From: Halomicronema hongdechloris C2206
GTDB lineage: Bacteria; Cyanobacteriota; Cyanobacteriia; Phormidesmidales; Phormidesmidaceae
Length of the DNA stretch: 32,000 nucleotides
Direction of reading: 5' to 3'
NCBI RefSeq assembly: GCF_002075285.3
Contig: NZ_CP021983.2
Span: 1,470,001-1,502,000 of the forward strand
Part shown: positions 5,148-26,031 of the stretch, piece by piece
Layout of the letters: each line of letters starts with the position of its first letter
Position numbering within the stretch: the stretch's first letter is position 1
The notes under the pieces: model-generated
What the model was told of the DNA's origin: nothing
The model's input: the letters and a program-made list of their open reading frames with translations, nothing else
The model's database searches: none
Program-made: the position numbers and the translations under genes

Positions 5148-5550
5148 GCTGCCCTGGACCTGCGGACGGGCATGTCGATTAGCAGTGCTGGATCGCGTCG
5201 CATTGGCAAGGTAGCAATAAATTTTGAATTTTGAATTTTGAATTGAAGCCCGCTGCCTTTTCCGCGCTGCTGCCCTGGACCTGTGGCAGGGCTGGTCGAT
5301 TGGTCGTTAGGTTTTCTGCACTGGGCGCGGCAACCGCGCCCCTACCCTGTCCCCTTACCTCTATCTGCTATCGGCCTACTCGCCCGCCCATCCACCGTTT
5401 GACAGGGAGCCAAACCATTCACTCAACACTCAACACTCAAAATTCAAAATTCAAAACTCAAAATTCAAAATTCAAAACTCAGCCCTCCGGGCAGGCTCCG
5501 CCTTTCTCGAATGCCGTTAGGCTATACACCCCACTACCCCATCACCCCCT
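5148..5550. repeat. Dispersed MITE-like repeat, copy 1. It carries heptamer tandem arrays and a nested ~72-bp hairpin element.
   Basis: 5253-5267 plus 5340-5430 plus 5482-5548 match the reverse complement of 16322-16510 almost base for base (for example CCCTACCCTGTCCCCTTACCTCTATC.GCTATCGGCCTACTCGCCCGCCCATCCACCGTTTGACAGGG). Extra segment 5268-5339 contains the hairpin GGGCGCGGCAACCGCGCCC. GCTGCCCTGGACCTG.GG also occurs at about 5148. Track ORF 5231..5650 is a translation of this repeat. Confidence 0.8.
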
Positions 5551-7822: not shown

Positions 7823-9051
7823 ATGACCCTGGCCCAACCGTCCCACAAGAAAGCTAAGGCCCTGCGTCCGGGGGCTCGTCGTCCGGCCAAGGAGTTGTGC
7901 AGCGAGTGTGGCCTTTGCGATACCTATTACATTCACTACGTCAAAGAGGCCTGTGCGTTCCTCAATCAGCAATTTCCTCAGCTAGAGGCACAGGCCCATG
8001 GCCGGGCTCGGGATTTGGAGAACACTGACGACTGCTACTTTGGGGTGCATCAATCCATGATGGCGGCCCGCAAGCGGCAGCCCCTGGAAGGAGCCCAGTG
8101 GACCGGTATCGTCAGCACCATTGCCGTGGCCATGCTGACCCAGGGCCGGGTGGAGGGGGTAGTCTGCGTGCAGAATACGGAGGAAGACCGGTTTCAACCC
8201 CAGCCGATTCTGGCCACTACCCCAGAGGAGATTCTGGCGGCCCGAGTCAATAAGCCCACCCTCTCCCCCAATCTGTCGGTGCTAGAGCAGATCGAGCAGT
8301 CGGGGCTGAAGCGGCTGTTAGTGATCGGGTAGGCTGTCAGATTCAAGCGCTACGGGCAGTGGAACAGCAGCTGGGGCTGGAGAAACTCTATGTATTAGGC
8401 ACCCCCTGTGTGGATAATGTCACCCGGACTGGGTTGCAAAAGTTCCTCGAGACCACCAGCCGCTCGCCAGAGACGGTGGTGCACTATGAGTTCATGCAGG
8501 ACTTTCGGGTGCATTTCAAACATGAGGATGGCTCGGTGGAGACGGTACCGTTTTTTGGCCTCAAGACCAACCAGCTCAAGGATGTGTTTGCCCCCTCTTG
8601 TATGAGCTGTTTCGACTATGTCAATGGGCTGGCGGATCTGGTAGTGGGCTACATGGGCGCCCCTTTCGGCTGGCAGTGGATCGTGGTGCGCAACCAGACG
8701 GGGCAGGACATGCTGGATCTGGTCATGGATCAACTAGATACCCAGCCAGTGACGAGCCAAGGTAATCGTAAGGCGGCAGTGCAGCAGAGTATTCCGGCCT
8801 ACGACAAGGGAGTGACCCTGCCCATGTGGGCGGCGAAGCTAATGGGGGTGGTGATTGAGCGAATTGGGCCGAAGGGGCTGGAATATGCGCGCTTCTCCAT
8901 CGATTCGCACTTCACCCGCAATTATCTCTACGTGCAGCGTCACCATCCCGAGAAGTTGGCAGACCATGTGCCGGCCTTTGCCCAGCGCATTGTCAGTCAA
9001 TACACCCTGCCGGAGGCAGAGGAGAGCCATGCGGATTCTGCTGGTGGATGA
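7823..9051 (+). pseudogene. bciB: Ferredoxin-dependent 3,8-divinyl (proto)chlorophyllide 8-vinyl reductase BciB (slr1923/FrhB-like), split by a 1-nt deletion at about 8329
   Basis: ORFs 7823..8332 (frame 2) and 8359..9051 (frame 1) together give the full protein: ...PAKELCSECGLCDTYYIHYVKEACAF...KRLLVIG|VGCQIQALRAVEQQLGLEKLYVLGTPCVDNV...SCFDYVNGLADLVVGYMGAPFGWQW. Reading GTA GGC TGT CAG from 8329 restores VGCQIQALRAV. Confidence 0.85.
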
Positions 9052-12264: not shown

Positions 12265-12645
12265 GTGATGACCAACAGTGCCGATGACCGACTGAGCCGC
12301 ATTGAGGCCATCGTAGAAGCTAATGCCACGGCCATTGCCGAACTGCAGCAGGCCACGGACTCCGGCTTTGAGCAAACCCGCCAACGAACCGCCGAACTGC
12401 AGCAGACCATGGACTCCGGCTTTGAGCAAACCCGCCAAATCATCGAGCGCGAAGCTGCCGAAGCCATTAGCCTCATCAGCGGTCTAGCCGAGCACCAAGA
12501 GGAAACCGATAGCCGCTTCAACAATCTGCTGCAGGAGGCTCGTGCGGACCGGCAGCGTAACGAAAACGAGCATCAGGCATTTCGGGAGTCCTTTCAGAAT
12601 ATGCTGGCCGAAATTGCCCGTATCTGGCAGCGCCTGGCAGGATAG
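12265..12645 (+). CDS. Hypothetical coiled-coil protein with an internal 18-residue duplication
   Basis: 126-aa ORF containing ELQQATDSGFEQTRQ / ELQQTMDSGFEQTRQ, encoded by a 54-bp-period tandem repeat. I recognise no family. Confidence 0.5.
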   Translation: MMTNSADDRLSRIEAIVEANATAIAELQQATDSGFEQTRQRTAELQQTMDSGFEQTRQIIEREAAEAISLISGLAEHQEETDSRFNNLLQEARADRQRNENEHQAFRESFQNMLAEIARIWQRLAG

Positions 12646-16255: not shown

Positions 16256-16321
16256 TGGTCAAATGTATGGAGGCTCTCTTCCACTGGTTCTATCACAGAA
16301 CTATAAAGAAGCACTTCCCCT

Positions 16322-16510
16322 GGGGTGATGGGGTGTATAGCCTAACGGCATTCAAGCAAGGCGGAGCCTGCCTGGAGGGCTGAGTGTTGAGTGTTGAGTG
16401 TTGAGTGTTGAGTGAATGGTTTGGCGCCCTGTCAAACGGTGGATGGGCGGGCGAGTAGGCCGATAGCGGATAGAGGTAAGGGGACAGGGTAGGGGCGCGG
16501 GAAAAGGCAG
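16322..16510. repeat. Dispersed MITE-like repeat, copy 2 (inverted relative to copy 1)
   Basis: This is the reverse complement of copy 1 (see 5148-5550). Its heptamer array is (GAGTGTT)x4 at 16381-16413. It lacks the nested 72-bp hairpin element. Track ORF 16293..16571 is a translation of this repeat. Confidence 0.8.
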
Positions 16511-16906: not shown

Positions 16907-17632
16907 TCAAATCGCAGGATTTCGCAATATTCCATAGTTATCCAGCTCTCTCGCCGCTTCCGACATCATCTGCTGTCGCACCACCAGCGGCGCAATCACC
17001 TCCCCCTGCGGTCGCCAATCGCGCAGTCGCATCGTTACATTAATATCCCCTACCCGCATCCAGCCCCGGTAGTAGGCATCTGTAGCGGGACGCTGGGCCA
17101 GTACCTGCAAAATCTCCTGCTGTTCCGTTGCCTCCGCCACCTCAATATGCACCAATTGCGCCAACTCCCCATAGCTCACCGGCCCAAAGGTGGGGTGGCG
17201 CTCCGTATCCTGTACATACCCGTGGGCAAACTCCGGCTCAAACCGCATGATCAGCAGTGCTTTGGGCAGATAAAAATTAAATCCCCAGGCCGCTGCCAAC
17301 TGCACCTGCACCTGTTCTGGGGTAGGCAGTTGCCCGGTGTCCCGCAGGGTTTTGAGCTCGGGGGGCACCGCTGGATCGCCCCAGGGTAAGACCCTCAGGT
17401 GGGGGGAGCGGATGCGATCCAGGCGGTAGTTATGCCAGCCAATGTGGCCATCGGGATCTTGGCCATAGGCGCTGAGGTACTTGGCCCGGCGGGCATAGTG
17501 CACACACACTGGATACACCGTCACCGTGGCGGTGCGCCGTTGGCGAACCACCCAGTTGTCAAACTGAATCACGCCGCCATCGGGGGTTTGCCAGAGGGCT
17601 TCGATTTGCTGCTGGTAGCTGTCCACCCTCAT
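16907..17632 (-). CDS. WYL-domain protein with C-terminal extension and no N-terminal HTH (CRISPR-associated WYL-like)
   Basis: GHIGWHNYRLDRIRSPHLRVL is the WYL signature, followed by a ~150-aa C-terminal domain. Only ~65 residues precede the motif, so there is no room for a wHTH. The 5' end is interrupted by a MITE. ATG 17632 sits at the MITE junction, and the TTG at 17668 used by the track lies inside the MITE. Confidence 0.7.
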   Translation of the reverse strand: MRVDSYQQQIEALWQTPDGGVIQFDNWVVRQRRTATVTVYPVCVHYARRAKYLSAYGQDPDGHIGWHNYRLDRIRSPHLRVLPWGDPAVPPELKTLRDTGQLPTPEQVQVQLAAAWGFNFYLPKALLIMRFEPEFAHGYVQDTERHPTFGPVSYGELAQLVHIEVAEATEQQEILQVLAQRPATDAYYRGWMRVGDINVTMRLRDWRPQGEVIAPLVVRQQMMSEAARELDNYGILRNPAI

Positions 17633-17756
17633 TGACTGACAAAACCTGCTAGAACCCAGACTATCCAAAGGGTCAGGGAACCTGCCCCCTACAGCATCCG
17701 AAATCTGGTAAGGGCGCGGAAACCGCGCCCAATGCAGAATCTTTTGTCAGTCAACC
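17628..17756. mobile_element. 129-bp MITE with 13-bp perfect terminal inverted repeats and a flanking 11-bp direct repeat
   Basis: The TIRs are TTGACTGACAAAA (17632-17644) and TTTTGTCAGTCAA (17742-17754). The direct repeat AGCTGTCCACC occurs at 17617-17627 and 17757-17767. An internal hairpin GGGCGCGGAAACCGCGCCC (17712-17730) is related to the one at 5323-5341. Confidence 0.65.
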
Positions 17757-17860: not shown

Positions 17861-18586
17861 CTATACTCGCCGTTTTTGATCAACTAATGCAAATGCAGGT
17901 GAAATGAGACCAACTACAGCCGCAGTTAAATTTAATCCCTGGATAAAAGAGCTTTCGGGTCCAATAGTTATAAAAACTATCAATGAAATCAACATAACGA
18001 CAAGAGATATGGCACCCACGTACCAGAGTAGGTATGATTTACGTAAAAGAGAGGACTGACTATTTCTGACTGGATCAGTCTTGCTCAAGCAAGTATAAGA
18101 GTAATCCGTTTCATTCAATACGTGGTAGAGAAAATCATCTGAACGATTTGGATCGTATTTTGGTTTCAATTCAAATGTGTAAACTGACTCAATACCAAGT
18201 GCAAGGCATACGGCAAAAACATCTATGCTTGGTCTTTTAGGAGCAGTCGTTAAATCAACTATCCATTTTGTATTTTTCTGACTTTTGATAACCTGGTACA
18301 ATTCTCGCTTCAGATTTGAGTACTCAATCGGAATTAATTCCCTTTTCAAAAGTTGCTCATTTATTTGTTTGTAAACACCAGAGAATCGCGAAGAAAGGTC
18401 GCCTAGTCGGCCCCATATTTTGCTAGAAATGTTACTTGCTTCAGAATCAGTAATTCCTGTTTCAGTTCCTTTGATGTGTATCAGTTTGATTGCTTCTATT
18501 CCCATATTTTCATAGGCATATGAAATCGCATTAATGTACGAATCGACATTGGGAGAGAAGAGAAAAACTAAAAGTGTTTTAAGCAT
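17861..18586 (-). CDS. CARF-like sensor domain fused to two C-terminal transmembrane helices (putative cyclic-oligonucleotide-gated membrane effector)
   Basis: I place the start at ATG 18586 (MLKTLLVFLFSPNVDSY...), which overlaps the upstream stop in ATGCTTAA. The N-terminal half is Rossmannoid: beta1 LLVFLFSP, IEAIKLIHIKG, and WIVDLTTAPKR, which fits the CARF motif [DN]x[ST]xxx[RK]. The C-terminal TM helices are LLWYVGAISLVVMLISLIVFITIG and LNLTAAVVGLISPAFALV. Confidence 0.6.
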   Translation of the reverse strand: MLKTLLVFLFSPNVDSYINAISYAYENMGIEAIKLIHIKGTETGITDSEASNISSKIWGRLGDLSSRFSGVYKQINEQLLKRELIPIEYSNLKRELYQVIKSQKNTKWIVDLTTAPKRPSIDVFAVCLALGIESVYTFELKPKYDPNRSDDFLYHVLNETDYSYTCLSKTDPVRNSQSSLLRKSYLLWYVGAISLVVMLISLIVFITIGPESSFIQGLNLTAAVVGLISPAFALVDQKRRV

Positions 18587-18971
18587 CAAGAAAATCCTCC
18601 AATTCTCTAAACTGACGAACACAATTCTTGCCACTTGTCTTAGCCAGCTTTAAAGCAAAGTAAGCTTCTCTTGGAGTTTTTCCAAGTCCTATTGATAGTG
18701 TGCTTTTGGCCTTTTTCTGAAATTCAAATCTAATTTTTTCGATCAGATTGAGAGTATCGTCTGTTTTGCTAATGCGGGCTAAAATATTATCTCCACCTGT
18801 AAATATTATTTCTGCCTCGCAAGACTCTATAAGCTCATATTCTAGCCAAAGCATCGCTTTATGAAATACTTTTGAAAATTCGAAAATTTTAGCTGATTCA
18901 TTTCTCAACATAAGATATTCAAGATGATGTCCAACATCATCACCATCGGCAGCAAAATAGAGTTTAGTCAT
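18579..18971 (-). CDS. Minimal Cas10-palm/GGDEF-like nucleotide cyclase (mCpol-like), 130 aa
   Basis: LYFAADGDDVGHH is the first acidic metal-binding motif. IIFTGGDNILARI is the GGDD/GGDEF-equivalent. LSIGLGKTPREAYFALKLAKTSGKNCV is the SxG...AK..GKN tail common to GGDEF and Cas10 palm domains. No other domain fits in 130 aa. Confidence 0.65.
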   Translation of the reverse strand: MTKLYFAADGDDVGHHLEYLMLRNESAKIFEFSKVFHKAMLWLEYELIESCEAEIIFTGGDNILARISKTDDTLNLIEKIRFEFQKKAKSTLSIGLGKTPREAYFALKLAKTSGKNCVRQFRELEDFLDA

Positions 18972-19224: not shown

Positions 19225-19695
19225 GTGTTACCTTCTCACCACCTGGGGGCGGCCCTGCTGGTGGTCGGCCCACCCGACAGCGGTAAGTCGGTACTCAGCC
19301 ATGCCCTGTTTCGGGCCTTGCTGCCGGAGTATCCGGACGTGTTTTTGCAGCGAGCCCAGTGGGATGGGGAGGGCAACTGGACTTTAGAGCTGCCGGAGTC
19401 AGCAACAGCAGCGGATCGGGAGGCCTTCAAGCTGTTCTATAAGGGCGGCTTGACGGCGGGCTTTTTCCCGTATCAGGCCCAGGCGATTTTGCAGCTGCGG
19501 CGACGGAAGCCGCTGGTGATAGTGGATGTGGGCGGCAGGGTGCAGCCGGAGAAGGTACCGATTTTGGAGGCGTGTTCCCATTACCTTGTACTCAGCTCAA
19601 AGCTCCGGGAGGTGAAGCAATGGCATGAGTTTTGCGGCGATCGGGGCAATTTATCGCCATTAGCAGTTATCCACAGTAGAATGGCACTGACATAA
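19225..19695 (+). CDS. Small P-loop NTPase, family not recognised. The 3' end is formed by the IS4 terminal repeat.
   Basis: It has a GTG start at the AT-rich/GC-rich boundary, Walker A VVGPPDSGKSVL and Walker B-like PLVIVDVGG. The last ~6 codons and the stop (..SRMALT*) lie inside the IS inverted repeat beginning at 19679, so the native C-terminus is probably lost. Confidence 0.55.
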   Translation: MLPSHHLGAALLVVGPPDSGKSVLSHALFRALLPEYPDVFLQRAQWDGEGNWTLELPESATAADREAFKLFYKGGLTAGFFPYQAQAILQLRRRKPLVIVDVGGRVQPEKVPILEACSHYLVLSSKLREVKQWHEFCGDRGNLSPLAVIHSRMALT

Positions 19696-21158
19696 GCCGT
19701 ATCAAGCAACTAGTTTAGCTTTCGCAACCGAGCGCGGTTCTTGCATTCTGGGGAACGGTTTGGGGCGACGTTTGACCACTCGGGGTTCTGAGCGGTGCGG
19801 TCGAAAAGGGATAATCAACTCCCGCACAGCGTTTAACAAGGCTTGGTAGCCTTGCGGTCGCGCAGATGGCGAGAGATGCAGCAACTCGGGTCGGAAATGA
19901 TTGAATTGTTGCCGCGTGCCCTGTAGGGAGAGCCGCAAAGCCCCGACCTCGGCATCGGCGCCGGCTTCCCACATCAGCGTTCGCAGCAGATTGTAGGCCA
20001 ACAAATGCACCCAAATACTTTTAGTCACCATGGTAGGGGTTTTGGCGGCAACCATCTCCATGGCTAAGGTGGTTTTGAGATGTCTGAGATTGACTTCAGC
20101 GGCTTGCCAACGCAACTGATAGAGTTGGGCCAATTTGGCTCTAGGATAGCGTTTGGGGTCTATCAAGGTGGTCACTACCACAAAGTTGCTCGGGCGAAAC
20201 CCAGGGACTTGAATCGAGAGATAGACTTCGCGCACCTCAAGCGCCTCGGGCAACGCCTCAAACTCCTCCGGTGAAAGGGCATGAGGACATTTTTTCGGGC
20301 GCTGCCACCGGACGATGTGGTCGCCAATGCCTAGCTTTTTGCCGCGCCTGAAATCACAACGGCGTTGATGATGCTTGCGAAAGACGGCATCGGCTCCCAT
20401 CGCGGTGACTCCAGCCAAATCGACATAGGTGCCGTAAGCCGAATCGGCCACCACCACATCCTCTGGGCACAACGTCTGATAGAGGTGACGGGCTAAGCGC
20501 CATTCACTGACCCGAAAGGGAGCCATTGCGACTTCCAATACCGCTCCTGTGGTCACACAAAACCACACTTGCAGCTTCAGGAGGGGAAAGCCACAGCCGC
20601 TCTTTTGATTACTGTGCTGGGGATACGCCCGTTGATTCACTTCGGTATCGCTCATCAAAATCGTCGTCGCATCAAACGCCCTCACGACCCGACCGCACCA
20701 CCGCTGAGCTGGGGATACCTGCGCCTGTAAAGCCGTGGCGACGCGCTTTACAAGCGGTGGAAAAATCGATTCGGGCCAGCGTTTGCGGGCTTTGCTGTAG
20801 GCGCCCGTATCCGCCGACGGCACGCTCAATCCAGCCACCCGCATCCAGGTCGTCACGCGCTTGACAGCATGGCTCAAACTGCTGTCCGAATCGAGAACTT
20901 GCGACAGCCAACTCCACAGCACCACTATCGGGGTGTAAAGCACTTGGCGATAAGTGACTCCCTGGGCCTCCAGCACCGCCTGAATCTCTGCTTCCGGCAG
21001 CACATCGCTAAACGGTAGACCGATGCTGTTCTGGTATTGCTCCTTGAGGACTGCTGCACGATTCGGCATCATAGAGACATGGTTATGGGCTTCGACGCTT
21101 TGATTCTTACAGATCAAGCGCTTGAAGCCTTTTTTGCTCTCTTATGTCAGTGCCATTC
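19679..21158. mobile_element. IS4-family insertion sequence (~1.48 kb), apparently intact
   Basis: It has 18-bp perfect terminal inverted repeats: GAATGGCACTGACATAAG at 19679-19696 and its complement CTTATGTCAGTGCCATTC at 21141-21158. They enclose one transposase ORF. There is no matching target-site duplication on the two flanks. Confidence 0.75.
19702..21072 (-). CDS. IS4-family DDE transposase
   Basis: The ORF runs 19702..21117, and I place the start at ATGATG 21072 (MMPNRAAVLKEQYQ...). The DDE context is VVRAFDATTI, VVVADSAYGTY and YQLRWQAAEVNLRHLK (a YxxR...E...K-type motif). Confidence 0.85.
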   Translation of the reverse strand: MMPNRAAVLKEQYQNSIGLPFSDVLPEAEIQAVLEAQGVTYRQVLYTPIVVLWSWLSQVLDSDSSLSHAVKRVTTWMRVAGLSVPSADTGAYSKARKRWPESIFPPLVKRVATALQAQVSPAQRWCGRVVRAFDATTILMSDTEVNQRAYPQHSNQKSGCGFPLLKLQVWFCVTTGAVLEVAMAPFRVSEWRLARHLYQTLCPEDVVVADSAYGTYVDLAGVTAMGADAVFRKHHQRRCDFRRGKKLGIGDHIVRWQRPKKCPHALSPEEFEALPEALEVREVYLSIQVPGFRPSNFVVVTTLIDPKRYPRAKLAQLYQLRWQAAEVNLRHLKTTLAMEMVAAKTPTMVTKSIWVHLLAYNLLRTLMWEAGADAEVGALRLSLQGTRQQFNHFRPELLHLSPSARPQGYQALLNAVRELIIPFRPHRSEPRVVKRRPKPFPRMQEPRSVAKAKLVA

Positions 21159-22058
21159 AGCCCTAGTAGACCCCCAGCAGTTGCAGGAGTGCTTCTTGAG
21201 TTGGGTGCAGCAGCTCACGGAGCAGTTGGAGATTAACCTGATTCATCTCGACGGGAAAACGGCGCGGGGGTCCTATGACCGAGAGAGGTCGTTGAGAGCC
21301 TTGCAGACCGTCAGTGCCTGGGCCTCAGAGCATCATCTGGTGCTGGCGCAACACCGCGTCGAAAGCACCTCGAATGAGATTACCGCTATTCCCGAATTGC
21401 TCAACCTGCTGGATCTCGACGGTGCGATTATCACCCTGGATGCCATGGGCACGCAACGGGAGAGTGCTGCCCAGATCCGGGAGCAAGGAGGGGACTACAT
21501 CCTGGCACTGAAAGGCAATCAAGGGACCCTCCACCACGCGGTGAAGACCTTCTTTCAGGAGGCGGAGCGCACTCAGTGGGCAACCCTGGATTATAGCTAC
21601 AGTAGCACCACAGAAGCCGGTCATCATCGCATTGAACATCGTCAGGTCTGGGCGGTGCCGCTGAGTCAAGTGCCCGAGTTGCCCACTCACCAGACCTGGA
21701 GCGGCCTGGCTACCGTTGTGATGGTCAGCGCGACCGCCAATTGTGGAACAAGACGACCCATGAGGTGTGCCTCTACATCAGCAGTTTGCCAGCTGAGGCC
21801 AGTGTGTTGGCCCAAGCGATCCGCTCCCATTGGGGCATCGAAAATAGCTTGCACTGGGTGTTGGATGTCACCTTTCGGGAAGACTCGAGTCGGATTCGCA
21901 GCGGTCATGGTCCTGAAAACATGGGCCTCTTACGGCGTTTGGCCCTGAATTTACTCAACCGGGCTCCCTCTAAGCAGAGTCTCAAACAGAAACGCTATCG
22001 CGCTGCCATGGACAATGACTTTGTCATCGAGGTGTTGCTTGCTCATGACGTTGGCTAA
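21159..22058 (+). pseudogene. ISAs1-family (H-repeat-type) transposase, 5'-truncated by the IS4 element or a rearrangement, and frameshifted at about 21731
   Basis: The sequence begins mid-protein at LVDPQQLQECFLSWVQQL...LIHLDGKTARGSYD...ITLDAMGTQRESAAQI..GGDYILALKGNQGTL. It then shifts frame to RQLWNKTTHEVCLYISSL...IRSHWGIENSLHWVLDVTFREDSSRIR. About 95 N-terminal codons are missing. The element's right end probably lies between 22059 and about 22235. Confidence 0.8.
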
Positions 22059-22210
22059 GGCCAGCGAAACGGCCCTGATAAGGGGACACAAACGATTGGA
22101 GGACACGACAATCCAGCTCATGCAGCTCTCAGACTATTCCAACGGGGTTGGAATCACGTTTTCAGCATCTAAAACTGGCATGACTCATAAAATCCTGATC
22201 TGGATTCTGA

Positions 22211-22444
22211 GCATTATGTCAAGCTGATTTACGTGCGATTGCCCTGTATGAGGGGCAGACCTTAGAGGCTGTAGTGACAGCCATTAAAGGTAACAGAGTC
22301 ACTTATGAAATGTTAGGCACTATCAAGCTAACGGCTAGGGAACCTCAAAAGGCCAAGCTACTGTCGGAGGGTCAGATTGTCACTGTCAAAGTCACGGCTC
22401 TAAAACCAGATGGATCACCTAAGAACGTCAAATTTACGGGTTAA
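22211..22444 (+). pseudogene. Orphan 3' gene fragment with no start codon, ending 5 nt before the TIR-SAVED ATG
   Basis: The open frame reads ..DLRAIALYEGQTLEAVVTAIKGNRVTYEMLGTIKLTAREPQKAKLLSEGQIVTVKVTALKPDGSPKNVKFTG* with native-like composition. The only ATG is internal. It abuts the ISAs1 right end. I do not recognise the family; the pattern is beta-rich and OB/S1-like. Confidence 0.3.
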
Positions 22445-22449
22445 TTATT

Positions 22450-23718
22450 ATGAATACTGCGCCAACCACTTCCTATCGGTCTCCCTTTGTTTCTACCTTC
22501 CTATCCCACTCCTCTGCCGATAGCGATCTGGCGGCAGCCGTGACCAAACGCCTAGGGCGTCGCGGTGTTTTAACCTGGCTTGATAAAAATGAACTACTCG
22601 AAATGGGGTCGCTGGATGGGGTTCTGAAACAGGCCGTCCAGCAGCAGGCAACCTTGACGCTTTTTCTATCTGAAGCCTCTCTAAAGTCTGAGTGGTGTAG
22701 AGACGAACTCAGATGGGCGATCGAGGCTCAGGCGGGGACCGATCATTTGCTGCCGGTATATTTGGGAGATCCCCTGAAGCTGATCAAAAGCCATCCTCTG
22801 CTGCGCGAAAGGTTTCTGCATGCCGATGGCAATCGCGTCAATCAACTGGGCTATGCCTGCCAGCAGGAGGCCGGCGAACCGAATCCAGATGCGATCGCAC
22901 AAAAAATTGCCGCCACCGCCTACCACCGTTCCATCCCTGACCCCTGGTCTGAGGTGGTGATTGTGTTAGACCAACGGGGCAGTGGCCCCCGCCGTGGCCT
23001 CCCAAAACTTCCTGCCAACATCGCCAGTCTCCAAGCCCCCACCCTCACCTTTCGCCCCGATACCAGATCCCGCCAGATGCGAGAACTGCTAACTGGCGAC
23101 GATTGGGACGATATGGCCAACACCCTGAAACAGTCCCTATCTAACGCCCTCGGCACAGTGCGGGGAGAGCCTCGTAAAGTACGGGTTCTCGGCAACGCCC
23201 AGACAGGGCTGGTATGGGCCGTGGGCCGCCACTTTGACCGCACCACCGCTGCCGACCTCTACGGCTATGATCGAGATGGTCTAGCCGTCACGAATCAAGG
23301 GCAAGCAAGGCACACCCCCTTACTGGGCGGAAATCCGGAGAGAGCCCAGCCAGCCAACGATAAAGCAAAAGCACCAGAGGTTAAGTTGCCCACGGTCGCT
23401 CTGGGCATTGGGTCACAGCGGCGATACGGTTCTCAAGTCCAAGACGCTGGGCCTGATCTGCCGTTGTTTTGGATAGAGTCTGGCTCAATCGAAGACTCCA
23501 AACAGGCTATGGAGCTAGTGGCAGATATCGTGGCCTCTGTCGAACAGTTGCGGCGAGAGTATGGCACTCGGGAACTCGTCCTGTTTTGGACCACCGCCAA
23601 CCATGTGGCCCTGCTGGCCGCCGCTAACCTGACCTCCCATGTCATTCCTAAAATCAAATATATGGAATGGGATCATGCCAATGATAGGTACGTGCATCTT
23701 CCCATGTTGGGGGATTGA
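22450..23718 (+). CDS. TIR-SAVED fusion protein (cyclic-oligonucleotide-sensing NADase-type effector)
   Basis: The N-terminus is a TIR_2 pattern: FLSHSSADSDLAAAVTKRLGRRGVLTWLDKNEL...LFLSEASLKSEWCRDELRWAIE. The C-terminal ~250 aa show two CARF-like halves typical of SAVED: VRVLGNAQTGLVWAVGRHFDRT and ELVLFWTTANHVALLAAANLTSHV..IKYMEWDH. It contains a HIP1 site at 22891. Confidence 0.7.
   Translation: MNTAPTTSYRSPFVSTFLSHSSADSDLAAAVTKRLGRRGVLTWLDKNELLEMGSLDGVLKQAVQQQATLTLFLSEASLKSEWCRDELRWAIEAQAGTDHLLPVYLGDPLKLIKSHPLLRERFLHADGNRVNQLGYACQQEAGEPNPDAIAQKIAATAYHRSIPDPWSEVVIVLDQRGSGPRRGLPKLPANIASLQAPTLTFRPDTRSRQMRELLTGDDWDDMANTLKQSLSNALGTVRGEPRKVRVLGNAQTGLVWAVGRHFDRTTAADLYGYDRDGLAVTNQGQARHTPLLGGNPERAQPANDKAKAPEVKLPTVALGIGSQRRYGSQVQDAGPDLPLFWIESGSIEDSKQAMELVADIVASVEQLRREYGTRELVLFWTTANHVALLAAANLTSHVIPKIKYMEWDHANDRYVHLPMLGD
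23256..23348. repeat. Direct repeat copy A (inside the SAVED-coding region)
   Basis: A 93-bp stretch CCTCTACGGCTATGATCGAGATGGTCTAGCCGTCACGAATCAAGGGCAAGCAAGGCACACCCCCTTACTGGGCGGAAATCCGGAGAGAGCCCA recurs at 24501-24593 with one mismatch. Weaker similarity extends ~15 bp upstream and ~30 bp downstream. Confidence 0.9.
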
Positions 23719-23814
23719 TAGACCTTCCATTTCAAGGCTTATTACTTTGAGCAGCATCGTCTGACAATCAGTCAGGCTATGCTGATAGCAAGACTGTCTC
23801 TGGGACCAGCCACC

Positions 23815-24435
23815 ATGCCGTTTAGCGGATTCAAGAGCCTGGGCGAAACTCTCAAAGAATTTGAGATTGTCTACACCGAAGCGAACTTTATCGAGGGTGT
23901 GCCGTTCGCTATCTCAGACTATTTCCGGCAAGACCTAAGGCTCATGTTGGATGATGCTGTGGTAGACAACTCCGAGTACGCGATTTGCGAGAACCTGGTG
24001 TATCCCATTCTCAAAGAAATCTGGAAGCAGTATCGGCGCAACTTTATTCTCTGGAGTCATGAGTTTCTCAACTGCGATGCTCAGCTGTCAGGGTTTCCCG
24101 AGTATATTTTGGCGCGGCGATCGCCCCTCGGCAAAATCGTCTTCGACAAGCCCTACTTCGTGCTGGTAGAAGCCAAGCAAGACAACTTTGATGCTGCCTG
24201 GAGCCAGTGCCTCGCTGAGATGATTGCCGCTCAGCGCTTGAACGACAATGAACAACTCGTGATTTTCGGCATTACCTCCAACGGCGATCGCTGGCAGTTT
24301 GGCAAGCTGGATGGAACTCAGTTCACCCTTAACCGAACTTTCTACACCATTCAAGAGTTGGACACGTTGTTTGCAGCAGTGAACTACGTGTTTCAGCAGT
24401 GCGAGCAACAGTTGAATGCCCTCATTGCTGTTTAG
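23815..24435 (+). CDS. PD-(D/E)xK nuclease-fold protein, type I restriction R-subunit N-terminal (HSDR_N)-like
   Basis: GFPEYILARR...PYFVLVEAKQDNFDAAWSQCLAEM gives a (P)E ... ExK arrangement, and the size is ~200 aa. The start is either ATG 23815 or ATG 23779. HIP1 sites lie at 24117 and 24284. Confidence 0.55.
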   Translation: MPFSGFKSLGETLKEFEIVYTEANFIEGVPFAISDYFRQDLRLMLDDAVVDNSEYAICENLVYPILKEIWKQYRRNFILWSHEFLNCDAQLSGFPEYILARRSPLGKIVFDKPYFVLVEAKQDNFDAAWSQCLAEMIAAQRLNDNEQLVIFGITSNGDRWQFGKLDGTQFTLNRTFYTIQELDTLFAAVNYVFQQCEQQLNALIAV

Positions 24436-24500
24436 ACCTCTGGTATATCGGCGACAGATGTTATAAATCATCCTGCCTTTCCCTCACCCACTGCCGCCAA

Positions 24501-24593
24501 CCTCTACGGCTATGATCGAGATGGTCTAGCCGTCACGAATCAAGGGCAAGCAAAGCACACCCCCTTACTGGGCGGAAATCCGGAGAGAGCCCA
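24501..24593. repeat. Direct repeat copy B (a remnant of SAVED-coding sequence upstream of glcF)
   Basis: See copy A. The offset is exactly 1245 bp. In frame it reads NLYGYDRDGLAVTNQGQAKHTPLLGGNPERA, a gene fragment rather than a functional ORF. Confidence 0.9.
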
Positions 24594-24675
24594 TCCAGTC
24601 AATAATAGAGCAAAAGAACCAATGGTCAGGAATCCAGCGCGGTACCCTGAAAGAGAGCACGCCGATAGCCTCACC

Positions 24676-26031
24676 ATGCAGACCTCCGAGCAGCCCCTGA
24701 AGTTAGATCCCAGCCTGACCACAAATCCAGACGGGTTCGATGCCCACGATCCTCCTAGCCCAGAGCTAATCAATGCCTGCGTTCACTGTGGCTTCTGCCT
24801 CACCACCTGCCCCAGCTATCGGGTCATCGGCAAGGAAATGGACTCCCCCCGGGGCCGCATTTACCTAATGGAGGCCATCAACAAGGGAGAAGCGCCCCTG
24901 TCGCCAGCCTCGGTGCAACACTTCGACTCCTGCCTGGGCTGCCTAGCCTGCACCACCGCTTGCCCCTCCGGCGTCCAGTACGATAAGTTAATTGCCGCCG
25001 TGCGGCCCCAGATCCAGCGCCAGCATCAGCGCCCTCTGCCACAGCGGCTGTTGCGACAACTGATTTTTTCCCTCTTTCCCTACCCCGACCGGCTGCGATT
25101 GCTGCTAGCGCCCCTGGCCCTGTACCAACGCCTGGGGTTGTCTCAGCTGGTGCAGAAAACCGGGGTGCTACAACGGCTCTCTCCCAATCTGGCCGCCATG
25201 GAATCCTTGCTACCGCCGGTGACGCCGAAGTGCTTCCAAGACAACTTGCCGGAGGTGGTTCCAGCCCAGGGAGAACGGCGCTACCGGGTGGGCATGATTT
25301 TGGGCTGTGTGCAGCGGGTATTTTTCACCGGGGTGAACGAAGCCACGGCCCGGGTCTTGGCCGCCAATGGCTGTGAGGTGGTCATTCCCAGGGATCAGGG
25401 TTGCTGCTCGGCCCTACCGGCCCACCAGGGGGAAGAGGCTCAGGCCGAGGCCTTGGTCCGTCAGATGATTGACTGCTTCGAGGCGGCCCAGGTCGACTAT
25501 GTGATCATCAATGCCGCTGGTTGCGGCCACACCCTGAAGGAATACGGTCACATTCTGCGCCATGATGACGCCTACCACGAGCGGGCCGTGGCCTTCTCCA
25601 ACCGGGTGCGAGACGTGCAGGAATTCTTGATGGAAGTGGGGCTGACGGCGACGTTGCATCCCCTCACCCCGGGATCGCTGCCCGTGGTCTATCAAGATGC
25701 CTGTCACCTGCTCCATGGCCAGAAAATCAGCCAACAACCGCGGCAGTTACTCAGCCAAATTCCCGGCATCGAGCTGCGGGACCCCCTAGACGCCGCCCTC
25801 TGTTGTGGCAGTGCCGGCGTCTACAACATGCTGCAACCCCAGGTGGCTGCAGAGCTGGGGCCGATGAAGGTGACGAACCTGCTGAATACGGGCGCCCACC
25901 TGATCGCCTCGGCCAACCCAGGCTGCTCCCTGCAAATTCAGCGGTATATGCCAGAGAACCAGATTCTCCTGATGCATCCCATGGAGCTCCTGGACCGCTC
26001 GATTCGTAATCAGCCCCTGTCAGGACTCTAG
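24676..26031 (+). CDS. glcF: Glycolate oxidase/dehydrogenase iron-sulfur subunit GlcF
   Basis: MQTSEQ... start. Two 4Fe-4S motifs are present, CVHCGFCLTTCPSY and CLGCLACTTACPSG, plus two CCG domains (QGCCSALPAH, ALCCGSAGVY). The track start at 24622 would add a leader encoded partly next to the repeat remnant. Confidence 0.85.
   Translation: MQTSEQPLKLDPSLTTNPDGFDAHDPPSPELINACVHCGFCLTTCPSYRVIGKEMDSPRGRIYLMEAINKGEAPLSPASVQHFDSCLGCLACTTACPSGVQYDKLIAAVRPQIQRQHQRPLPQRLLRQLIFSLFPYPDRLRLLLAPLALYQRLGLSQLVQKTGVLQRLSPNLAAMESLLPPVTPKCFQDNLPEVVPAQGERRYRVGMILGCVQRVFFTGVNEATARVLAANGCEVVIPRDQGCCSALPAHQGEEAQAEALVRQMIDCFEAAQVDYVIINAAGCGHTLKEYGHILRHDDAYHERAVAFSNRVRDVQEFLMEVGLTATLHPLTPGSLPVVYQDACHLLHGQKISQQPRQLLSQIPGIELRDPLDAALCCGSAGVYNMLQPQVAAELGPMKVTNLLNTGAHLIASANPGCSLQIQRYMPENQILLMHPMELLDRSIRNQPLSGL

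What the first reader, a model, noticed from the sequence alone, without database searches (positions are those of the whole stretch)
22450..23718. Orphan TIR-SAVED effector with native composition
The 422-aa ORF has an N-terminal TIR pattern, FLSHSS..., with the SEWCRDEL glutamate context. Its C-terminal region has two CARF-like halves, which is SAVED. TIR-SAVED proteins are known as CBASS or type III CRISPR effectors. From memory, a cA3-activated filament-forming NADase was described by Hogrel et al. in 2022. Here no cyclase gene is adjacent. The upstream gene is a start-less fragment abutting an ISAs1 relic, which suggests the cognate partner was destroyed by IS activity. The gene carries a HIP1 site at 22891, so it is a long-term resident, unlike the mCpol-like insert.
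Basis: partly seen in the sequence, partly recalled or inferred. Interest (0 to 1): 0.65.

Follow-up and report, generated by a model that had tools for sequence, protein, structure and literature searches.

The report
Stranded CRISPR type III TIR-SAVED effector
This intact gene encodes a signal-activated NAD-destroying immune protein that normally ends a type III CRISPR operon, but here insertion-sequence-linked rearrangements have removed the CRISPR machinery that would switch it on, which makes it a well-resolved but fairly ordinary case of defence-locus decay.

Summary
Window 22450-23718 (+) is an intact 422-aa TIR-SAVED gene, XM38_014060 of Halomicronema hongdechloris C2206. The catalytic Glu (E86) is invariant in the family, and the predicted fold matches the cA3-bound TIR-SAVED structure 7QQK over its full length.

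It was a type III-D CRISPR-Cas effector module, not CBASS. In 18 of 21 ortholog loci the gene lies beside type III genes. It is usually the last gene of csx3-cas10-csm3-csx10-csm2-csm3-csm3-RAMP-csx21-TIR-SAVED(-PD-DExK) or of cas10-csm2-5-cas6-TIR-SAVED.

The window keeps, in the same order, a truncated WYL gene, a Csx3-AAA fragment, a Csx21 C-terminal fragment, TIR-SAVED and PD-DExK. An intact IS4 and an ISAs1 relic sit where about 8.7 kb (cas10 and the RAMP genes) should be. A low-GC mCpol + CARF-TM cassette (type II Panoptes-like) has replaced the 5' ends of WYL and csx3.

The gene shows purifying selection (dN/dS 0.125), and one peptide was reported in a published proteome. Whether it can still be activated in trans is unresolved. 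It is a new member of a known kind, of modest interest.

The parts
22450..23718 (+). Intact TIR-SAVED gene (422 aa; XM38_014060). The TIR domain is about aa 13-140 (22486-22869), with catalytic Glu E86 at 22705-22707. The SAVED domain is about aa 165-420 (22942-23709).
   Evidence: The PADLOC SAVED_TIR model scores 1.7e-92, the top fold hit is 7qqk_A (E 9e-14, TM 0.64), and E86 is invariant in 26 homologs.
22211..22444 (+). csx21 relic. Only the C-terminal ~75 residues remain, there is no start codon for the homologous part, and the stop lies 5 nt before the TIR-SAVED ATG.
   Evidence: PADLOC Csx21 scores 2.7e-19 against profile positions 147-199/201. The relic is 63% identical to the L001 gene and 55% to the L005 gene directly upstream of their TIR-SAVED.
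21159..22060 (+). ISAs1-family transposase relic. Its N-terminus is cut by the IS4 insertion, and it is frameshifted between ORFs 21037-21948 and 21741-22058.
   Evidence: Pfam DDE_Tnp_1 is split over the two ORFs. The genome annotation reads 'ISAs1 family transposase XM38_014040'.
19679..21158 (-). Intact IS4-family element (1480 bp, 471-aa transposase) with perfect 18-nt terminal inverted repeats and no target-site duplication.
   Evidence: The absence of a target-site duplication means the present flanks were not contiguous before.
19240..19683 (+). csx3-AAA relic. Only residues 118-265 of 306 remain; the N-terminal Csx3 domain and the C-terminus are missing.
   Evidence: PADLOC Csx3-AAA scores 3.2e-58. 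The relic is 76% identical to L005 Csx3-AAA.
17861..18971 (-). Low-GC (0.36) two-gene insert, mCpol (18579-18971) plus CARF-TM (17861-18634). It is type II Panoptes-like and occupies the place of the WYL and csx3 5' ends.
   Evidence: Pfam mCpol scores 1.8e-25, NCBIfam mCpol 4e-21 and PADLOC CARF_m9--CARF_TM 4.7e-67. No other ortholog locus has these genes.
16907..17668 (-). Truncated HTH-WYL regulator gene. The C-terminal half remains and the N-terminal ~250 residues are lost.
   Evidence: PADLOC WYL scores 6.7e-104 against profile positions 205-436/437. The fragment is 63% identical to aa 253-483 of the 490-aa gene that lies divergent from csx3 in L012.
23779..24435 (+). PD-(D/E)xK family gene, a recurrent downstream neighbour of TIR-SAVED.
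   Evidence: The PADLOC cas-associated PD_DExK model scores 4.5e-46. Orthologs lie downstream of TIR-SAVED in L005 (88%), L016 (86%) and L018 (72%).
24470..24626 (+). Roughly 150-nt relic of a second TIR-SAVED copy, corresponding to aa ~265-311 (the linker between the two SAVED halves).
   Evidence: Direct repeat D1 and its alignment. The relic is 92.5% identical to the resident gene and 78% to the L001 gene. The segment is native to the family. pN/pS is 0.78.

Best explanation
XM38_014060 is the accessory NADase effector of a type III-D CRISPR-Cas system that has lost its signal generator.

Normal mechanism (inferred from characterised relatives):
1. The Cas10 subunit of the crRNA-guided complex makes a cyclic oligoadenylate when it binds phage RNA.
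2. The nucleotide is sandwiched between SAVED domains of neighbouring TIR-SAVED molecules stacked head-to-tail.
3. That stacking brings TIR domains together into composite active sites that use Glu86.
4. NAD+ is hydrolysed, which arrests the infected cell.

History of this locus (shown by synteny): an ancestral locus WYL(-) | csx3-AAA, cas10, csm3, csx10, csm2, csm3, csm3, RAMP, csx21, TIR-SAVED, PD-DExK lost about 8.7 kb. The loss runs from the csx3 3' end to the csx21 5' part and is now occupied by an intact IS4 and an ISAs1 relic. Separately, a foreign low-GC mCpol/CARF-TM cassette replaced the 5' ends of WYL and csx3.

Present state (inferred): the effector gene is intact and looks functional, but it has no cis signal source. 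It can fire only if a cyclic oligoadenylate is supplied in trans, most plausibly by another type III system in the genome. Otherwise it is a silent remnant awaiting decay.
For: Identity:
- Pfam, NCBIfam and PADLOC hits.
- E86, W82, W43 and D45 are invariant in 26 homologs.
- E86 aligns with the Glu of Cat1 WDEL and of AbTIR NYEL. The equivalent residues, E84 in MkeTIR-SAVED and E86 in TSR1, are essential.
- The AF2 model has pLDDT 87.4. The top PDB fold hit is 7qqk_A, TIR-SAVED bound to cA3, at E 9e-14 and TM 0.64 over the full length, followed by Cap4, Cap5 and SAVED-CHAT.

Type III linkage:
- 18 of 21 distinct ortholog loci carry type III genes.
- TIR-SAVED is the last gene of the operon in at least 13 of them.
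- GGDD is invariant in the five partner Cas10 proteins aligned.
- The template locus is typed III-D by Csx10 (3e-137), a III-D Csm2 and Csx21 (9e-82).

Deletion history:
- Five collinear genes or relics are shared with L005/L012: WYL 63%, Csx3-AAA 76%, Csx21 about 52-55%, TIR-SAVED 66-67% and PD-DExK 88%.
- The 80%-identical CCT1 ortholog (L013) has the same III-D layout.
- IS4 has perfect 18-nt ends but no target-site duplication.
- No Cas10, RAMP or Cas6 trace remains in the window.

Still fit:
- dN/dS is 0.125 against the closest ortholog.
- One TMT peptide is listed for the protein, while the adjacent IS and hypothetical genes shown have none.
- The genome paper reports type III as well as type I CRISPR systems elsewhere in the genome.
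Against: - No biochemistry exists for this clade. It shares only 16% identity with 7QQK and is not detectable against it by sequence.
- The activating ligand is unknown. The literature and gene context point both ways. TSR1 uses cA3, and SAVED-CHAT, a cA3-activated effector, neighbours the L010 ortholog. A published survey tentatively suggests cA4, and the Csx3 ring-nuclease family co-occurs with the gene.
- I could not show that H. hongdechloris has a cyclase-competent Cas10 elsewhere. It was absent from the top 120 of 1,191 Cas10 hits, and the other leads were dead ends.
- Protein evidence is a single peptide.
- No consensus promoter was found upstream.
- dN/dS over a long divergence cannot reveal relaxed selection since a recent deletion.
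- The order of the IS and deletion events is inferred, not shown.
Confidence: 0.8

Rival explanations
1. Inert remnant. The gene is intact only because the deletion is recent. It receives no activating signal, contributes nothing and will decay like its neighbours.
For: Every other type III gene of the locus is truncated or gone. A second TIR-SAVED copy has already decayed to about 150 nt. No promoter consensus was found upstream. A trans Cas10 was not demonstrated. L003 shows the same kind of IS-truncated locus elsewhere.
Against: The 422-codon ORF is fully open with all family-invariant residues present. The adjacent PD-DExK gene is also intact. One peptide was detected in the proteome. The genome is reported to hold type III CRISPR elsewhere.
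Confidence: 0.4
2. Rewired stand-alone or hybrid sensor. The orphan responds to a nucleotide not made by a CRISPR complex. Candidates are housekeeping c-di-AMP, as reported for a haloarchaeal TIR-SAVED lacking its cyclase, or cA3 from the neighbouring mCpol.
For: There is a precedent for cyclase-independent TIR-SAVED activity through host c-di-AMP. Type II Panoptes mCpol enzymes make cA3 constitutively, and such a cassette lies 3.5 kb away. The nearest characterised TIR-SAVED proteins are activated by cA3.
Against: The Panoptes authors argue that a guard must use a nucleotide the resident systems do not use. Constitutive cA3 would be toxic to a cell holding a cA3-activated NADase. The cassette is compositionally foreign (GC 0.36), lies on the opposite strand, and occurs in none of the 21 other loci. 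The family is otherwise tightly tied to Cas10.
Confidence: 0.07
3. It is a CBASS effector (Cap-type TIR-SAVED) whose CD-NTase was lost.
For: The only solved full-length structural match, 7QQK, comes from a CBASS operon. Pfam defines SAVED as SMODS-associated.
Against: No SMODS/CD-NTase domain is listed among the called genes of the 11 annotated neighbourhoods, and none is present in the window. The flanking relics belong to families catalogued as type III-D accessory genes: Csx21, Csx3-AAA and HTH-WYL. By sequence the TIR domain is closest to the CRISPR effector Cat1.
Confidence: 0.02

Closest known systems
CRISPR-associated TIR-SAVED (PADLOC model SAVED5--SAVED_TIR; reported by Hoikkala et al. 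2024, PMC11229360, in 7 of about 1000 type III loci)
   Same: Same two-domain architecture and length, with a full-length profile match of 1.7e-92. [quoted passage not shown]
   Different: Here the type III module itself has been deleted. This cyanobacteria-rich clade (126 clusters at 50% identity with E<=1e-30) has no biochemical characterisation, and its ligand is only guessed (cA4).
MkeTIR-SAVED of Microbacterium ketosireducens (PDB 7QQK; Hogrel et al. 2022)
   Same: It is the best structural match over the full length (E 9e-14, TM 0.64). The catalytic Glu lies at the equivalent position (E84 versus E86). The inferred mechanism is the same: cA3-driven head-to-tail SAVED stacking and a composite TIR NADase site.
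   Different: It comes from a CBASS operon with a CD-NTase. It shares only 16% identity and is undetectable by sequence or profile search. The ligand of the window protein is untested.
TSR1, the TIR-SAVED-Crn4 protein of Arachnia propionica (bioRxiv 10.64898/2026.09.16.751991)
   Same: [quoted passage not shown] It is activated by cA3.
   Different: TSR1 carries a C-terminal Crn4 ring nuclease that makes it an obligate, self-limiting dimer. The window protein ends after SAVED. Longer family members carry EAD5 or EAD8 domains, not Crn4. TSR1 did not appear among the sequence hits.
Cat1 (CRISPR-associated TIR 1; TIR-CARF; PDB 9MUD and 9MUO)
   Same: Its TIR domain is the closest solved relative by sequence (profile E 3.7e-17), and the WxDEL Glu aligns. 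It is also a type III CRISPR NADase that is activated by oligomerisation.
   Different: Its sensor is a CARF domain that binds cA4, not SAVED. Only the first ~110 residues are homologous.
Stand-alone haloarchaeal H-TIR-SAVED (Choudhary et al. 2025, bioRxiv 10.1101/2025.06.19.660554)
   Same: It is a TIR-SAVED working without its cognate cyclase, which is a precedent for an orphan keeping a function.
   Different: It derives from CBASS, is archaeal and senses host c-di-AMP. No evidence here suggests that the window protein does the same.

Membership tests
TIR-SAVED effector | N-terminal TIR domain with the catalytic glutamate | tested here: met
   Pfam TIR_2 scores 4.6e-16. E86 is invariant in 26 homologs and aligns with the Glu of Cat1 and AbTIR.
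TIR-SAVED effector | C-terminal SAVED domain (two fused CARF-like halves) | tested here: met
   Pfam SAVED scores 35.7 bits against a cut-off of 26.2, and NCBIfam SAVED 42.3 bits against 33. The AF2 model shows two alpha/beta halves. Fold hits include the SAVED domains of 7QQK, Cap4, Cap5 and SAVED-CHAT.
TIR-SAVED effector | Whole-protein fold like a solved TIR-SAVED | tested here: met
   7qqk_A is the top hit: E 9.2e-14, TMq 0.64, 454 aligned columns.
TIR-SAVED effector | NADase activity dependent on cyclic oligonucleotide and oligomerisation | not testable with these tools
   This needs an NADase assay against cA2-cA6 and related nucleotides with an E86Q control.
Type III CRISPR-Cas accessory (cOA-signalling) effector | Encoded within or next to a cas10/RAMP effector module | tested here: not met
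   The window itself has no cas10, RAMP or cas6 gene and no array. The feature is met for the family: 18 of 21 ortholog loci carry type III genes. Relics of csx3, csx21 and WYL flank the gene in the window.
Type III CRISPR-Cas accessory (cOA-signalling) effector | Partner Cas10 has an intact GGDD cyclase motif | tested here: met
   GGDD is invariant in the five Cas10 proteins from ortholog loci. This cannot be tested for this genome's own Cas10.
Type III CRISPR-Cas accessory (cOA-signalling) effector | A Cas10 able to supply the signal exists in the same genome | tested here: inconclusive
   The genome paper states that type III CRISPR is present. No H. hongdechloris Cas10 was recovered.
CBASS Cap-type effector | Operonic CD-NTase (SMODS) gene | tested here: not met
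   None is present in the window or among the Pfam-listed genes of 11 ortholog neighbourhoods.
Type II Panoptes (neighbouring cassette, not the finding itself) | Adjacent mCpol and CARF-TM genes | tested here: met
   Pfam and NCBIfam detect mCpol, and PADLOC detects CARF_m9--CARF_TM at 4.7e-67. cA3 synthesis and guard function are not testable here.

The most novel reading that the evidence does not exclude
The orphan has been kept because it is no longer CRISPR-dependent. On this reading it reads a non-Cas10 nucleotide, either cA3 from the neighbouring type II Panoptes-like mCpol or housekeeping c-di-AMP. That would make the island a hybrid circuit in which a guard system's decoy nucleotide and a stranded NADase interact. 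The opposite possibility is also informative: if a cA3-making guard coexists with this TIR-SAVED, the CRISPR-type clade may be tuned to cA4 and blind to cA3. Either outcome would define the ligand logic of an uncharacterised effector clade.
Probability: 0.07. Interest if true: 0.7.

Novelty: new member of a known kind. Interest (0 to 1): 0.3.

Why it matters
TIR-SAVED effectors are known in CBASS and, rarely, in type III CRISPR loci, so the kind is not new. The value lies in three points.

1. This clade is cyanobacteria-rich, with 126 clusters at 50% identity, and is consistently placed as the last gene of type III-D or Csm-type operons. It is biochemically uncharacterised, and published work disagrees on whether such proteins read cA3 or cA4.
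2. The locus is a clean natural example of how IS activity strips a toxic effector of its activator. A second independent case (L003) suggests that the csx21-TIR-SAVED end of the operon tends to survive.
3. A cA3-producing Panoptes-like guard landed inside the same locus. This allows a simple compatibility experiment between a decoy nucleotide and a possibly cA3-responsive NADase.

Tried and rejected
1. I first suspected that direct repeat D1 (23243-23381 / 24488-24626) was a mobile insert inside the SAVED ORF. I rejected this because the encoded segment (LYGYxRxGxxxTNxGQxRxxPLxGGNP) is conserved across the family. The downstream copy is therefore a gene relic.
2. The CBASS reading is rejected because no CD-NTase was found anywhere.
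3. I looked for a Cas10 of H. hongdechloris acting in trans and did not resolve the question.
   - A Cas10 profile search listed only the best 120 of 1,191 hits, none named for this organism.
   - The unnamed hit P0178, on a 5.57-Mb contig, has no name or accession and a different contig length.
   - The genome paper's text and supplements give no type III gene names or coordinates.
   - The L001 CRISPR repeat is absent from the window and from the paper's repeat table.
4. I tested whether the longer family members P0071 and P0047 are TSR1-like Crn4 fusions. Their extra domains are EAD5 and EAD8.
5. Sequence searches of the SAVED half and of the PD-DExK protein against the PDB found nothing.
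6. The promoter and terminator scan of 21900-24800 found nothing above the shuffled expectation.
I repeated it with 13 closer sequences. H. hongdechloris itself was not among the 11 loci returned.
Full report
**The object.** Window 22450-23718 (+) is a 422-codon ORF. Its product is identical to XM38_014060 / ASC70467.1 of Halomicronema hongdechloris C2206.
- Pfam finds TIR_2 (E 4.6e-16, aa 17-108) and SAVED (E 9.2e-9), both above their gathering scores.
- NCBIfam finds SAVED over aa 197-416.
- The PADLOC full-length model SAVED5--SAVED_TIR matches aa 1-420 at E 1.7e-92.

**Catalytic residue and fold.** In an alignment of 26 homologs with 35-81% identity, E86, W82, W43, D45 and F17-H20 are invariant. 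E86 aligns with the Glu of Cat1 (WDEL) and of AbTIR (NYEL). The equivalent residues, E84 in MkeTIR-SAVED and E86 in TSR1, are essential for NADase-dependent immunity. An AlphaFold2 model built on that alignment is confident (pLDDT 87.4, pTM 0.88) and shows a TIR domain followed by two alpha/beta halves. Foldseek against the PDB puts 7qqk_A, TIR-SAVED bound to cA3, first over the whole length (E 9.2e-14, TM 0.64), followed by the SAVED domains of Cap4, Cap5 and SAVED-CHAT. By sequence the protein is far from 7QQK: identity is 16%, and neither phmmer nor a family profile finds it. Its TIR domain is closest to the type III CRISPR effector Cat1 (profile E 3.7e-17).

**What surrounds it in the window.** The 32 kb are housekeeping genes except for an island at about 16.5-24.6 kb, between an aldo/keto reductase gene and glcF. 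In order, the island contains:
- a WYL regulator gene lacking its N-terminal half (16907-17668, minus strand; PADLOC 6.7e-104 against profile positions 205-436/437);
- a low-GC (0.36) pair, CARF-TM and mCpol (17861-18971, minus strand);
- a Csx3-AAA fragment (19240-19683);
- an intact IS4 with perfect 18-nt inverted ends at 19679-19696 and 21141-21158 and no target-site duplication;
- a frameshifted ISAs1-family relic whose N-terminus is cut by the IS4;
- a Csx21 C-terminal fragment (22211-22444);
- TIR-SAVED;
- a cas-associated PD-DExK gene (23779-24435);
- a ~150-nt relic of a second TIR-SAVED copy (24470-24626).

No Cas10, RAMP, Cas6, CD-NTase or CRISPR array is present. Csx21, Csx3-AAA and HTH-WYL are all catalogued accessory families of type III-D loci. 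Csx3-AAA occurs mainly in cyanobacteria.

**What normally sits there.** I examined 21 distinct ortholog loci. Eleven came through exact-protein look-ups. Eleven came from a scan of species-representative genomes, one of which (L021) lies on the same contig as L006. All were screened by tblastn with type III proteins. Eighteen carry type III genes, in two recurring layouts.
- **Layout A:** csx3-AAA, cas10, csm3, csx10, csm2, csm3, csm3, RAMP, csx21, TIR-SAVED, sometimes followed by PD-DExK. It occurs in L005/L012, L013, L014, L016, L017 and L019, with a variant in L020. PADLOC types it as III-D through Csx10 (3e-137), a III-D Csm2 and Csx21 (9e-82), although NCBI labels its Cas10 as III-B.
- **Layout B:** cas10, csm2-5, cas6, sometimes csx21, then TIR-SAVED. 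It occurs in L001, L002, L006, L007, L008, L009, L018, L022 and L023.

GGDD is invariant in the five partner Cas10 proteins aligned, so these loci should be able to make cOA. L001 also has CRISPR arrays on both sides. The three loci without type III genes are L010 (SAVED-CHAT and CHAT neighbours), L011 (type I genes plus cas6) and L015 (only 980 nt of upstream sequence available). No CD-NTase appears in the Pfam listings of the 11 annotated neighbourhoods.

**Reconstruction.** The window is collinear with layout A. Identities to L005/L012 are WYL 63%, Csx3-AAA 76%, Csx21 about 52-55%, TIR-SAVED 66-67% and PD-DExK 88%. The 80%-identical ortholog in filamentous cyanobacterium CCT1 (L013) also has layout A. 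On the template, the interval from Csx3 residue 265 to Csx21 residue 134 is about 8.7 kb and holds cas10 and seven further genes. In the window that interval is occupied by IS4 and the ISAs1 relic. The missing target-site duplication around IS4 indicates that its flanks were joined by rearrangement and not by simple insertion (inference). A second, independent event replaced the 5' ends of the divergent WYL and csx3 genes with the foreign mCpol/CARF-TM cassette, which occurs in none of the other loci. L003 shows a parallel case: a DDE_5 transposase, a C-terminal RAMP fragment, then intact csx21 and TIR-SAVED.

**Is the orphan still fit?**
- Against the closest ortholog gene (L001), dN/dS is 0.125 (dS 0.90). 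The values are similar for the TIR half (0.094) and the SAVED half (0.139). This shows constraint over the family's history but cannot resolve a recent relaxation.
- The published TMT proteome lists one peptide for XM38_014060, and none for the neighbouring IS and hypothetical genes shown in the same passage. This is weak evidence of expression.
- No consensus promoter was found upstream, which is inconclusive for a cyanobacterium.
[quoted passage not shown] I could not identify a Cas10 of this organism with the tools available.

**Composition and HIP1.** Gene GC is 0.565 and GC3 is 0.59, near the genome mean of 54.6% and slightly below the flanking housekeeping genes. The mCpol cassette stands out at GC 0.36. 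One HIP1 site in 1,269 nt compares with 0.03 expected from base composition. However, the site lies at the same D-A-I-A codons (gene nt 442) in L002, L013 and L014, and at nt 436 in L001, whose protein is two residues shorter at the N-terminus. It is therefore inherited with the gene and does not date the gene's residence in this genome.

**Ligand.** The ligand is unresolved.
- For cA3: MkeTIR-SAVED and TSR1 are both activated by cA3. The L010 ortholog neighbours SAVED-CHAT, which the TSR1 preprint lists as a cA3-activated effector.
- For cA4: Hoikkala et al. tentatively suggest cA4 for CRISPR-type TIR-SAVED. The loci also carry Csx3-family genes; from my own knowledge, Csx3/Crn3 is a cA4 ring nuclease.

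The question matters locally. Type II Panoptes mCpol enzymes make cA3 constitutively to hold CARF-TM off, and the authors argue that a guard must use a nucleotide the resident systems do not use.

**Verdict.** The added specification is that the lost partner was a type III-D CRISPR-Cas effector module. TIR-SAVED as a type III accessory effector is already described, so this is a new member of a known kind in a decayed locus. Interest is modest. It rests mainly on the uncharacterised clade, the clean natural orphaning and the adjacent Panoptes-like cassette.

Noticed in passing
window 24470-24626 (copy of 23243-23381): A ~150-nt internal fragment of a TIR-SAVED gene (aa ~265-311) lies between the PD-DExK stop and glcF. 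It is 92.5% identical to the resident gene but only 78% to the closest ortholog's gene, and the differences look near-neutral (pN/pS 0.78). It is probably the scar of a lost duplicate. As a direct repeat it could also mediate deletion of the SAVED 3' half together with PD-DExK.
   Followed up: yes
window 17861-18971 (minus strand): A low-GC (0.36, GC3 0.25-0.33) mCpol + CARF-TM gene pair has the architecture of type II Panoptes guard systems, which a 2026 paper shows signal with constitutive cA3. It replaces the 5' ends of the WYL and csx3 genes and is absent from all 21 ortholog loci. The mCpol motif reads GGDN.
   Followed up: partly
window 24558-24629 (minus strand): A promoter-like site (CTGACC-16-TATTAT) and a terminator-like hairpin lie inside the TIR-SAVED relic on the opposite strand. 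Together they could give a ~45-nt RNA antisense to the TIR-SAVED mRNA. The counts are not above the shuffled expectation, so this may well be chance.
   Followed up: no
window 5334-5541 and 16321-16500: Inverted repeat arms of about 200 nt (88-95% complementary), rich in heptamer tracts (ACTCAAA / TGAGTGT), lie 10.9 kb apart. The right arm sits exactly at the left border of the defence island.
   Followed up: no
window 19679-21158: The IS4 copy has perfect 18-nt terminal inverted repeats and a full 471-aa transposase but no target-site duplication. It is probably still active, and its flanks were joined by rearrangement.
   Followed up: partly
window 23779-24435; L005 12171-12785; L016 11315-11956; L018 12000-12617: The PD-DExK gene downstream of TIR-SAVED recurs in three other loci. 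It is more conserved (72-88%) than TIR-SAVED itself in those loci (62-66%). It has no Pfam, NCBIfam or PDB sequence match, so it may be a co-effector of unknown role.
   Followed up: partly
L003 6969-11254: This is an independent case of IS-linked truncation of the same type III-D operon. A DDE_5 transposase is followed by a C-terminal RAMP fragment and then by intact csx21 and TIR-SAVED.
   Followed up: partly
L008 8175-9932; L010 4865-9608: Some orthologs have further immune-domain neighbours: a 585-aa pentapeptide-repeat TIR protein directly upstream (L008), and CHAT plus SAVED-CHAT proteins upstream with no cas genes within 10 kb (L010).
   Followed up: no
P0047 (604 aa), P0071 (554 aa) and other long hits: Family members exist with extra effector-associated domains, EAD8 at the N-terminus and EAD5 at the C-terminus. 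Much longer fusions of up to ~1600 aa also occur.
   Followed up: partly
window 7823-8332 and 8359-9051: The FrhB/FdhB N-terminal and C-terminal domains are encoded by two separate adjacent ORFs in the same orientation. This may be a split or frameshifted gene.
   Followed up: no
window 12337-12438: Two 48-nt copies at 96% identity, 54 nt apart start to start, lie inside ORF 12265-12645, which has no family match.
   Followed up: no
window 22891; orthologs L001, L002, L013, L014: The HIP1 octamer in TIR-SAVED lies at the same D-A-I-A codons (gene nt 442) in L002, L013 and L014, and at nt 436 in L001's slightly shorter gene. HIP1 sites can therefore be inherited with a gene and are not a clock for residence in one genome.
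   Followed up: yes
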